From: Eledone cirrhosa
Lineage: Eukaryota
DNA: 64,000 bases
Direction of reading: 5' to 3'
Assembly: GCA_964016885.1 (NCBI GenBank)
Contig: OZ024753.1
Location: forward strand, 3,534,001 to 3,598,000
The notes beneath the pieces were generated by a model. It did no database searches and had not been told where the DNA came from. It saw nothing but the letters and a program-made list of their open reading frames with translations. This document shows positions 18,817-19,168 of this stretch, piece by piece. The first letter of the stretch is position 1; every line of letters begins with the position of its first letter. Both the position numbers and the translations under genes were made by a program.

Positions 18817-18971
18817 TTCATTATTTCTGAAGACGGCATATATATGTGTTTGGTATGTATATTTAATTTTGATAGTTTGTATAATTTTGTATAATTTTGT
18901 ACATAGATCTGTTGAATATGCATGCCAATTCTAACACATATATATCCTAGAAACGATCGTTAAATAATGAA
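18817..18971 (+). ncRNA. Type I hammerhead ribozyme with a 116-nt stem II
   Basis: TTCATTATTT-CTGAAGA-[18834-18949]-GAA-ACGATCGT-T-AAATAATGAA: perfect 10-bp helix I and palindromic helix III; stem II pairs ATATATATGTGTT/AACACATATATAT and TTGGTATGTATATTTAA/TTGAATATGCATGCCAA. Confidence 0.85.
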
Positions 18972-19168
18972 CTTTTTTTGTTTAATATAAGGAACTGTTT
19001 CATTGTTTTATTCATTATTTTTTTAATATTTTATCTTGACTCTGTATTCCGTTTATCTTTCACCGAAAGTGATTTTTCATTGCATCTCTTCTTTCCATGA
19101 TATCCGGATTACATTGAGTTCTTCATACGGATTGGACACTACCGTAAACTCTTGGTAGATTTATCTAC
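18817..19168 (+). mobile_element. Hammerhead-bearing (TA)n-inserted element present only in duplicate copy 1
   Basis: The matching site (35148-35193) is pure (TA)n; the element begins exactly at hammerhead helix I; bulged hairpin at 19039-19119. Confidence 0.85.

What the first reader, a model, noticed from the sequence alone, without database searches (positions are those of the whole stretch)
18817..19168. Presence/absence element with a giant stem II hammerhead
Seen: a 352-bp island in copy 1 where copy 2 has pure (TA)n. It starts at the first base of helix I and has an intact core, palindromic ACGATCGT helix III, a 116-nt mostly paired stem II that includes an (AT)n duplex, a GUU site and the bulged hairpin. 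Inference: a polymorphic and hence recent insertion (deletion between TA tracts is the alternative). The long stem II would defeat standard length-limited hammerhead searches.
Basis: partly seen in the sequence, partly recalled or inferred. Interest (0 to 1): 0.72.

Follow-up and report, generated by a model that had tools for sequence, protein, structure and literature searches.

The report
Penelope transposon end, oversized hammerhead
This 352-base insert is the short end piece of a very common Penelope-type jumping gene, likely a recent insertion on only one of two chromosome copies, and its predicted self-cutting RNA has one arm about five times longer than in the described relatives compared here, a trait shared by its whole family.

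Summary
The island is real, but it is not a stand-alone element. It is the terminal repeat (pseudo-LTR plus a 134-nt tail) of a young Hydra-clade Penelope-like retrotransposon. Part of it has 8,270 exact matches in this genome, an identical 352-nt copy lies elsewhere, and tandem copies run on into an RT + GIY-YIG ORF with the Hydra motifs. The two 16-kb 'copies' flank a 200-N gap and differ by 0.40%, so they are likely haplotypes and the insertion is likely heterozygous; my read-depth test was inconclusive. The hammerhead core and the 116-nt stem II are confirmed; the stem base covaries across subfamilies, and Rfam misses the motif. Its first pair is C·A, not G-C. Copies end at two fixed sites (one each in 25 of 31 head-to-head pairs). 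Their 5' ends pile up at base 4 of helix I, often after an extra G, not at the cleavage site. This points to capped, uncut RNA as the template. Cleavage is untested. The scan had already noted Hydra-clade hammerheads and two-ended Penelope insertions elsewhere in this genome. Verdict: new variant of a known kind.

The parts
18805..18816 (+). left part of the (TA)n target tract; it is itself the tail of an upstream high-copy repeat (about 18650-18804)
18817..19168 (+). solo pseudo-LTR with long tail of a Hydra-clade Penelope-like element (5' end uncertain by 1 nt)
   Evidence: identical copy L004; in L061 the same sequence leads into the RT-EN ORF
18817..18826 (+). hammerhead helix I, 5' strand; holds TCATT, and A18820 is the commonest 5' end of family copies (inferred transcription start)
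18827..18833 (+). core C3-A9 (CUGAAGA)
18834..18949 (+). extended stem II, 116 nt: C·A, G-U, G-C, C·C, then a long, mostly paired rod
18950..18961 (+). G12-A14, palindromic helix III ACGAUCGU, and U17; predicted cut after 18961
18962..18971 (+). helix I, 3' strand; can instead pair with 18997-19008 or 19011-19020 (competing hairpin)
19023..19034 (+). short-end site (island base 218), where 49 of 100 sampled copies stop; inferred RT start 1
   Evidence: loose ends at 19034
19035..19168 (+). 134-nt tail, the beginning of the element's 5' UTR; a conserved block and a CUACC/GGUAG hairpin lie before the long end (island base 352, inferred RT start 2)
19169..19188 (+). right part of the (TA)n target tract
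35146..35194 (+). empty site, pure (TA)n, in the second copy (likely the other haplotype)
31573..31772 (.). 200-N scaffold gap exactly between copy 1 (about 15499-31572) and copy 2 (31773-46467)

Best explanation
The island is a solo terminal repeat of a high-copy Hydra-clade Penelope-like retrotransposon, likely inserted recently into a (TA)n tract on one haplotype. Inferred mechanism: a tandem master copy is transcribed from a start at base 4 of hammerhead helix I (TC-A-TT); the element's GIY-YIG endonuclease nicks (TA)n; its RT starts inside the RNA at one of two fixed sites (island base 218 or 352, with 1-3 nt of TA microhomology) and runs to the RNA's capped 5' end. Starting in the upstream repeat gives short solo copies like this one; starting in the downstream repeat gives long copies; priming on both strands gives head-to-head pairs with one long and one short end. 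The hammerhead, with its 100-126-nt stem II, is a selected structure that is predicted to need a dimer (palindromic helix III) and to be held off by a downstream hairpin, so most templates that get copied are uncut.
For: Shown: 8,270 exact matches of the helix III/I motif and 6,085 of a tail motif, with 0 for the reversed controls. In L061 the repeat runs through 155 nt into an ORF; its relative P0001 has RWR, DKT, YRDD, CxCX5C, a GIY-YIG-like motif, CxxC and CxH, which match the Hydra traits in PMC8557442 section 11. 3' ends of the first 100 matches on C1: 49 short, 43 long, 4 running on into the ORF, 4 other; 25 of 31 head-to-head pairs are long + short. 5' ends: 41 of 100 fall at island bases 3-11, with the mode at 4 (17). 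Genome-wide, 3,105 of 9,634 copies lose the element at base 3/4, against 486 at base 4/5 and at most 63 at the cleavage site. G precedes base 4 in 22 of the first 100 listed (G:T 22:24) but base 5 in 9 of 100 (9:76), Fisher p = 3e-6. Six of the 30 loci join base 4 to one shared repeat end, as a template jump at an RNA 5' end would give. A subfamily with 376 exact matches swaps AUAUAUA/UAUAUAU for GGGUAGU/ACUACCC and the outer helix I U-A for C-G, and mostly keeps a stem II near 100 nt. From papers: internal RT starts at two sites explain the PLE tail, uncut RNA is the main substrate, and the ribozyme is protein-assisted (PMC11167929); the Penelope pLTR holds the transcription start (PMC8557442 section 10).
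Against: No RNA data were available, so the transcription start, the cap and cleavage are all inferred. This copy begins at base 1-2, not 4, and the native sequence just upstream is ATATAT-like, so it could be a truncated long cDNA joined by microhomology. The two arms of a pair share one junction, so the G counts are not independent, and some G's are templated by the opposite arm. An AATAAA lies 9-14 nt upstream of base 4, so a polyadenylation cut is another source of that boundary. Contig depth was higher in the duplicated flank (3.7 and 5.36) than upstream (2.0-2.02 and 3.7-4.0) in runs X1 and X2; the ratios of about 1.8 and 1.4 do not favour pure haplotype duplication. The empty allele was not seen in reads. 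The upper part of stem II covaries little in the consensus fold (6 of 32 pairs with double changes). Pfam found no family in P0001, and no tree was built.
Confidence: 0.8

Rival explanations
1. The same element and insertion, but copies 1 and 2 are a true recent 16-kb tandem duplication, and the element jumped into one paralog (it may be fixed).
For: Depth in the duplicated flank was 1.4-1.8 times that upstream in runs X1 and X2 (one contig each, near the depth floor of 2).
Against: A 200-N gap lies exactly between the copies, so their adjacency comes from scaffolding; the 0.40% divergence and microsatellite length differences are allele-like.
Confidence: 0.2
2. The insert is ancestral, and copy 2 lost it by deletion between the two TA tracts.
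For: TA tracts of 12 and 20 bp flank the island, and no target-site duplication can be read in (TA)n.
Against: The island is 100% identical to other copies while the flanks have diverged by 0.4%. The empty tract (49 bp) is longer than the two filled tracts together (about 32 bp). (TA)n is the family's normal target.
Confidence: 0.05
3. The hammerhead does not cleave; the long rod is kept as a promoter, protein-binding or RT-pausing structure, and the pile-up of 5' ends reflects RT stalling or fold-back at helix I, not a transcription start.
For: C·A at 10.1-11.1, GUU site, predicted helix I probability about 0 in the full island, no excess of copies starting at the cut site. Helix I's 10-nt inverted repeat does drive some template switches (11 of the 63 rows begin TCAG).
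Against: In the subfamilies examined, the core bases persist beside a replaced stem (partly by construction of the search patterns). Two sister families keep the core with N7 varying. In File S2 of PMC8557442, 15 of 26 Hydra rows have a U·U or U·C at 10.1-11.1 and 10 of 26 have U17. The excess of G at base 4 is not explained by stalling.
Confidence: 0.3
4. The island is a non-autonomous retrozyme monomer that replicates through a small circular RNA.
For: It is small, non-coding, high-copy and bears a type I hammerhead; animal retrozymes derive from PLE pLTRs (10.64898/2026.07.22.740005).
Against: No head-to-tail arrays of the 352-nt unit among the 100 sampled matches; in 4 of 100 the sequence runs on into the ORF, and 39 run upstream into the element's 3' UTR.
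Confidence: 0.05

Closest known systems
Hydra clade of C-terminal-EN Penelope-like elements, e.g. Hydra-1_Obim and Penelope-n_HM (Craig et al. 2021, PMC8557442; passages, sections 10 and 11, supplement parts 1, 2 and 52 of 59 read)
   Same: RW[KR], DKT, CxCX5C, CxxC and CxH motifs; C-terminal GIY-YIG; (TA)n targets; type I hammerhead in the pLTR; frequent mismatch at 10.1-11.1 and U at the cleavage site; 5'-truncated and inverted copies.
   Different: Stem II is 100-126 nt against 10-24 nt in the 26 Hydra rows of File S2 (about 50 nt for the longest row overall, from spike moss). The tail is 134 nt against the usual 30-40. The 3' UTR is 3.5-3.7 kb, against whole elements generally under 3 kb. 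The hammerhead differs from that listed for Hydra-1_Obim, so this is another family.
PLE minimal hammerheads (Cervera and De la Pena 2014, PMC4209133; parts 1-2 of 4 read, supplementary figures not seen)
   Same: Located in the pLTR; short palindromic helix III implying a dimer; most motifs occur as single truncated copies, some as opposite-strand pairs 100-700 bp apart.
   Different: Their helix II is 7-8 bp with a conserved G10.1-C11.1 and helix I is 4-5 bp; here helix I is 10 bp, the first pair is C·A, and helix II is a rod of about 45 pairs.
Poseidon element PAc of Anolis (Frangieh et al. 2024, PMC11167929; parts 1-2 of 4 read)
   Same: Two internal RT start sites that define the tail; AT-rich targets; both strands extended; no ends at the hammerhead cut site.
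   Different: PAc's sites lie inside the ORF, which starts at stem II; here both sites lie in the 5' UTR, 134 nt apart, and the ATG is 155 nt past the long end.
Animal non-LTR retrozymes (10.64898/2026.07.22.740005; parts 1-2 of 5 read)
   Same: Small non-coding repeats with a type I hammerhead, related to PLE pLTRs.
   Different: Retrozymes form tandem arrays of whole units; this island is the end fragment of an autonomous element.

Membership tests
Penelope-like elements (EN+) | single ORF with RT and C-terminal GIY-YIG endonuclease | tested here: met
   810-aa ORF with YRDD and IVYK..YIG by motif search; Pfam gave no family
Penelope-like elements (EN+) | pseudo-LTRs in partial tandem or inverted arrangement with an optional tail | tested here: met
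   4 of 100 tandem, 31 head-to-head pairs, two fixed 3' ends
Hydra clade | RWK and DKT (not DKG) in RT; CxCX5C linker; CxxC and CxH around the conserved E and N | tested here: met
   RWR 54, DKT 132, no DKG, CNCRNKANC 687, CRLC 785, CNH 813 in P0001 numbering; criteria
Hydra clade | absence of the CCHH motif inside the endonuclease | tested here: inconclusive
   no cysteine pair seen by eye after the YIG motif; not aligned to reference endonucleases
Hydra clade | insertion into (TA)n | tested here: met
   88 of 92 long- or short-ended copies are followed by a TA-rich tract
Hydra clade | placement in the RT phylogeny | not tested
Hydra clade | short element, generally under 3 kb | tested here: not met
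   ORF end to hammerhead is about 3.5-3.7 kb in L063/L064 and L061/L080; the paper gives length as a tendency, not a criterion
Type I hammerhead ribozyme | core C3-A9, G12-A14, A15.1-U16.1, H17 between three helices | tested here: met
Type I hammerhead ribozyme | paired 10.1-11.1, usually G-C | tested here: not met
   C·A in 37 of 37 distinct sequences; 15 of 26 published Hydra rows also have a mismatch there
Type I hammerhead ribozyme | covariation of the helices | tested here: met
   double changes at stem II pairs 5, 6, 7, 10 and 11 and at the outer helix I pair; they come from few subfamily splits
Type I hammerhead ribozyme | self-cleavage at H17 | not testable with these tools
   needs an in vitro assay or RNA end data
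Non-LTR retrozyme | head-to-tail arrays of a non-coding hammerhead unit | tested here: not met
   no such arrays among 100 sampled matches; the unit continues into an ORF

The most novel reading that the evidence does not exclude
In this family the hammerhead is a built-in switch at the transcription start: capped RNA begins inside helix I, which shortens it to 7 bp and, with a downstream anti-hammerhead hairpin, keeps the upstream ribozyme off, while a 116-nt stem II with a conserved C·A / C·Y signature forms an active, protein- or dimer-dependent hammerhead variant that standard searches miss in thousands of copies. The genomic copies then record the whole Penelope cycle: capped uncut template, two RT starts 134 nt apart, one per strand of the break.
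Probability: 0.3. Interest if true: 0.68.

Novelty: new variant of a known kind. Interest (0 to 1): 0.42.

Why it matters
What the hammerhead does in Penelope-like elements is an open question (PMC8557442, PMC11167929). This family is young and has thousands of copies with sharp ends, which gives genome-scale evidence that the copied RNA is uncut and likely starts inside the ribozyme's helix I. It also makes cleavage, the transcription start and the two RT starts directly testable. If it cleaves, it widens the known hammerhead shapes (stem II over 100 nt, C·A closing pair) and implies that length-limited searches undercount them. The single insertion is ordinary for such a family, but it is a marker of ongoing activity.

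Tried and rejected
A DNA search of the genome with the island returned nothing, not even itself; the tool skips very common words, so this shows nothing. Window-wide Rfam and repeat scans were swamped by microsatellites. Pfam found no family in P0001. No RNA holder was listed (the query was the unique flank). The depth comparison of duplicated and upstream sequence was inconclusive. RNAalifold paired core bases with each other and resolved only parts of stem II, so in-register pair counts were used. A cleavage-defined 5' end was rejected: at most 63 copies for three positions, 11 of them helix I template switches. A splice acceptor at base 4 was rejected: there is no AG before it. Rows set aside: 4 copies scored 'first=2' and 1 scored 'first=6' are long copies with substitutions, and 16 lack the 5' core. 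In one search, 3' values of 446-451 are alignment overruns into (TA)n, reclassified by motif. A look-up of earlier findings by sequence gave nothing. Paper searches showed no description of this family or of a PLE hammerhead with a stem II this long. The library is incomplete, Repbase and Dfam could not be searched, and the supplementary figures of PMC4209133 and PMC8557442 were not seen and may bear on this. PMC13282606 (passages only) lists recently active Penelope families in Octopus vulgaris, with no mention of ribozymes in the main text.

Full report
Observation. The window holds two near-identical stretches, about 15499-31572 and 31773-46467. At 18817-19168 the first has 352 bases where the second has only (TA)n. 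The fold is far beyond chance (z = -7.0; 1 descriptor hit in the window against 0 in 100 resamples). Rfam does not find it.

What it is. Exact patterns from the island occur 8,270 times (helix III/I) and 6,085 times (tail) in the 3.0-Gb genome, with 0 for the reversed controls. L004 is identical over all 352 bases. In L061 the island continues for 155 nt to an ATG and an ORF of about 810 aa. The related protein P0001 has RWR, DKT, YRDD, CxCX5C, a GIY-YIG-like motif, CxxC and CxH, the traits given for the Hydra clade in PMC8557442 section 11. Of the 120 listed homologues (of 324 found), 105 have DKT and 102 have CxCX5C; one named hit is from Argonauta hians. That paper lists an octopus member, Hydra-1_Obim, with a different hammerhead. 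So the island is the pseudo-LTR and tail of a further Hydra-clade family; clade placement rests on motifs, not on a tree.

The two window copies. A 200-N gap lies exactly between them, and they differ at 32 of 8,001 unmasked bases. The unique flank has only these two full-length matches in the assembly. This is the usual look of two haplotypes placed in tandem, which would make the insertion heterozygous. The check with reads did not settle it. Depth in the duplicated flank was 3.7 and 5.36 in runs X1 and X2, against 2.0-2.02 and 3.7-4.0 upstream, which lies between the two predictions; the empty allele was not seen; and two RAD runs do not cover the flank. I put one polymorphic locus at about 0.7. 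Insertion is favoured over deletion because the insert matches other copies exactly and (TA)n is the family's target (88 of 92 copies).

Ends of the copies. Of the first 100 matches on contig C1, 49 stop at island base 218, 43 at base 352, 4 run into the ORF and 4 are other; 25 of 31 head-to-head pairs have one long and one short end. This fits two internal RT starts, as shown in vitro for the Anolis element (PMC11167929), here 134 nt apart. At the 5' side, 41 of 100 begin at bases 3-11 (mode 4), 4 at -2 to -10, 39 run further upstream, and 16 lack the 5' core. Genome-wide, 6,529 copies have the native C at base 3 and 3,105 do not; 486 lack the A at base 4; at most 63 begin at the cut site. 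An extra G precedes base 4 more often than base 5 (22 G to 24 T against 9 to 76 in the first 100 listed of each; p = 3e-6), and 6 of 30 loci join base 4 to one shared repeat end. I infer a capped RNA starting at TC-A-TT; the match to an initiator consensus and the cap-to-G rule are recalled, not from a call. Caveats: arms of a pair are not independent, some G's are templated, an AATAAA lies just upstream, and this copy itself starts at base 1-2.

The ribozyme. Stem II is 99-126 nt in most variants. In 37 distinct sequences its base reads C·A (37 of 37), R-Y, G-C (37 of 37), C·C (36 of 37), then a helix with double changes. A subfamily with 376 exact matches replaces the (AT)n duplex by GGGUAGU/ACUACCC and changes the outer helix I pair; 11 of the 14 of its 20 loci that kept an exact 3' core have a stem II of 98-110 nt, and 6 had no exact 3' core. 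Two sister families in the fetched loci have shorter stems (30-31 nt and about 36 nt) with the same C mismatch at the fourth pair. Published Hydra hammerheads often have a mismatch at 10.1-11.1 (15 of 26 rows) and U17 (10 of 26), but their stems are 10-24 nt. The palindromic helix III forms an 8-bp duplex (-10.0 kcal/mol), in line with the dimer model of PMC4209133. In the full island, or in an RNA starting at base 4, helix I is predicted to lose to a downstream hairpin; that hairpin forms in 5 of 7 representatives. The structure is under selection; cutting is untested, and I put it at a little over even.

Comparison and verdict. The element class, the hammerhead in the pLTR, the (TA)n target and the tail are known. 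The very long stem II, the long tail and the 5' boundary inside helix I were not found in the papers searched. Earlier notes of this scan on the same genome describe another Hydra-clade hammerhead and two-ended Penelope insertions; I saw them after forming this reading, and they are not independent support. New variant of a known kind; interest 0.42.

Noticed in passing
window 46909-48918: A 311-bp tandem array with a compact hammerhead in each unit, as two opposed arms between (TA)n tracts; retrozyme-like. Rfam HH9 scores only 17.8 bits.
   Followed up: no
window 12726-12996: A head-to-head insertion in (TA)n of a second hammerhead family (stem II 30-31 nt; A-U, G-C, G-C, C·C base in other copies); copies in L069 flank a Hydra-like ORF.
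   Followed up: partly
L074:6576 and L075:576: A third Hydra-like family with its own hammerhead (palindromic AUGCGCAU helix III, C·U at the fourth pair of stem II).
   Followed up: partly
L061, minus strand, between 3923 and 3767: A 75-nt GT..AG candidate intron in the 155-nt leader before the ATG; D. virilis Penelope has a 75-bp 5' UTR intron.
   Followed up: partly
L085, L089-L093: The pLTR is joined at base 4 to the same end of another repeat (SINE-like, from recall) at several loci, suggesting RT template jumps.
   Followed up: no
window 19108-19160: A block of about 25 nt nearly invariant between subfamilies and a CUACC/GGUAG hairpin just before the long end; candidate protein-binding site.
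   Followed up: partly
window 18650-18804 (also 2454-2690, 23070-23277, 29291-29523, 58755-58984, 61085-61301): A very high-copy repeat with palindromic arms ending in (TA)n; its tail is the insertion target here.
   Followed up: no
window 249-374, 57945-58025, 24214 and 40243: Further hammerhead-like cores (CUGAUGA ... GAAAC), one in a palindromic pair.
   Followed up: no
window 23912-23982 and 39941-40011: A tRNA-like match (47.8 bits) in both copies of the duplicated stretch.
   Followed up: no
L063:6303 to L064:4477: The element's 3' UTR is about 3.7 kb and rich in microsatellites, unusually long for this clade.
   Followed up: no
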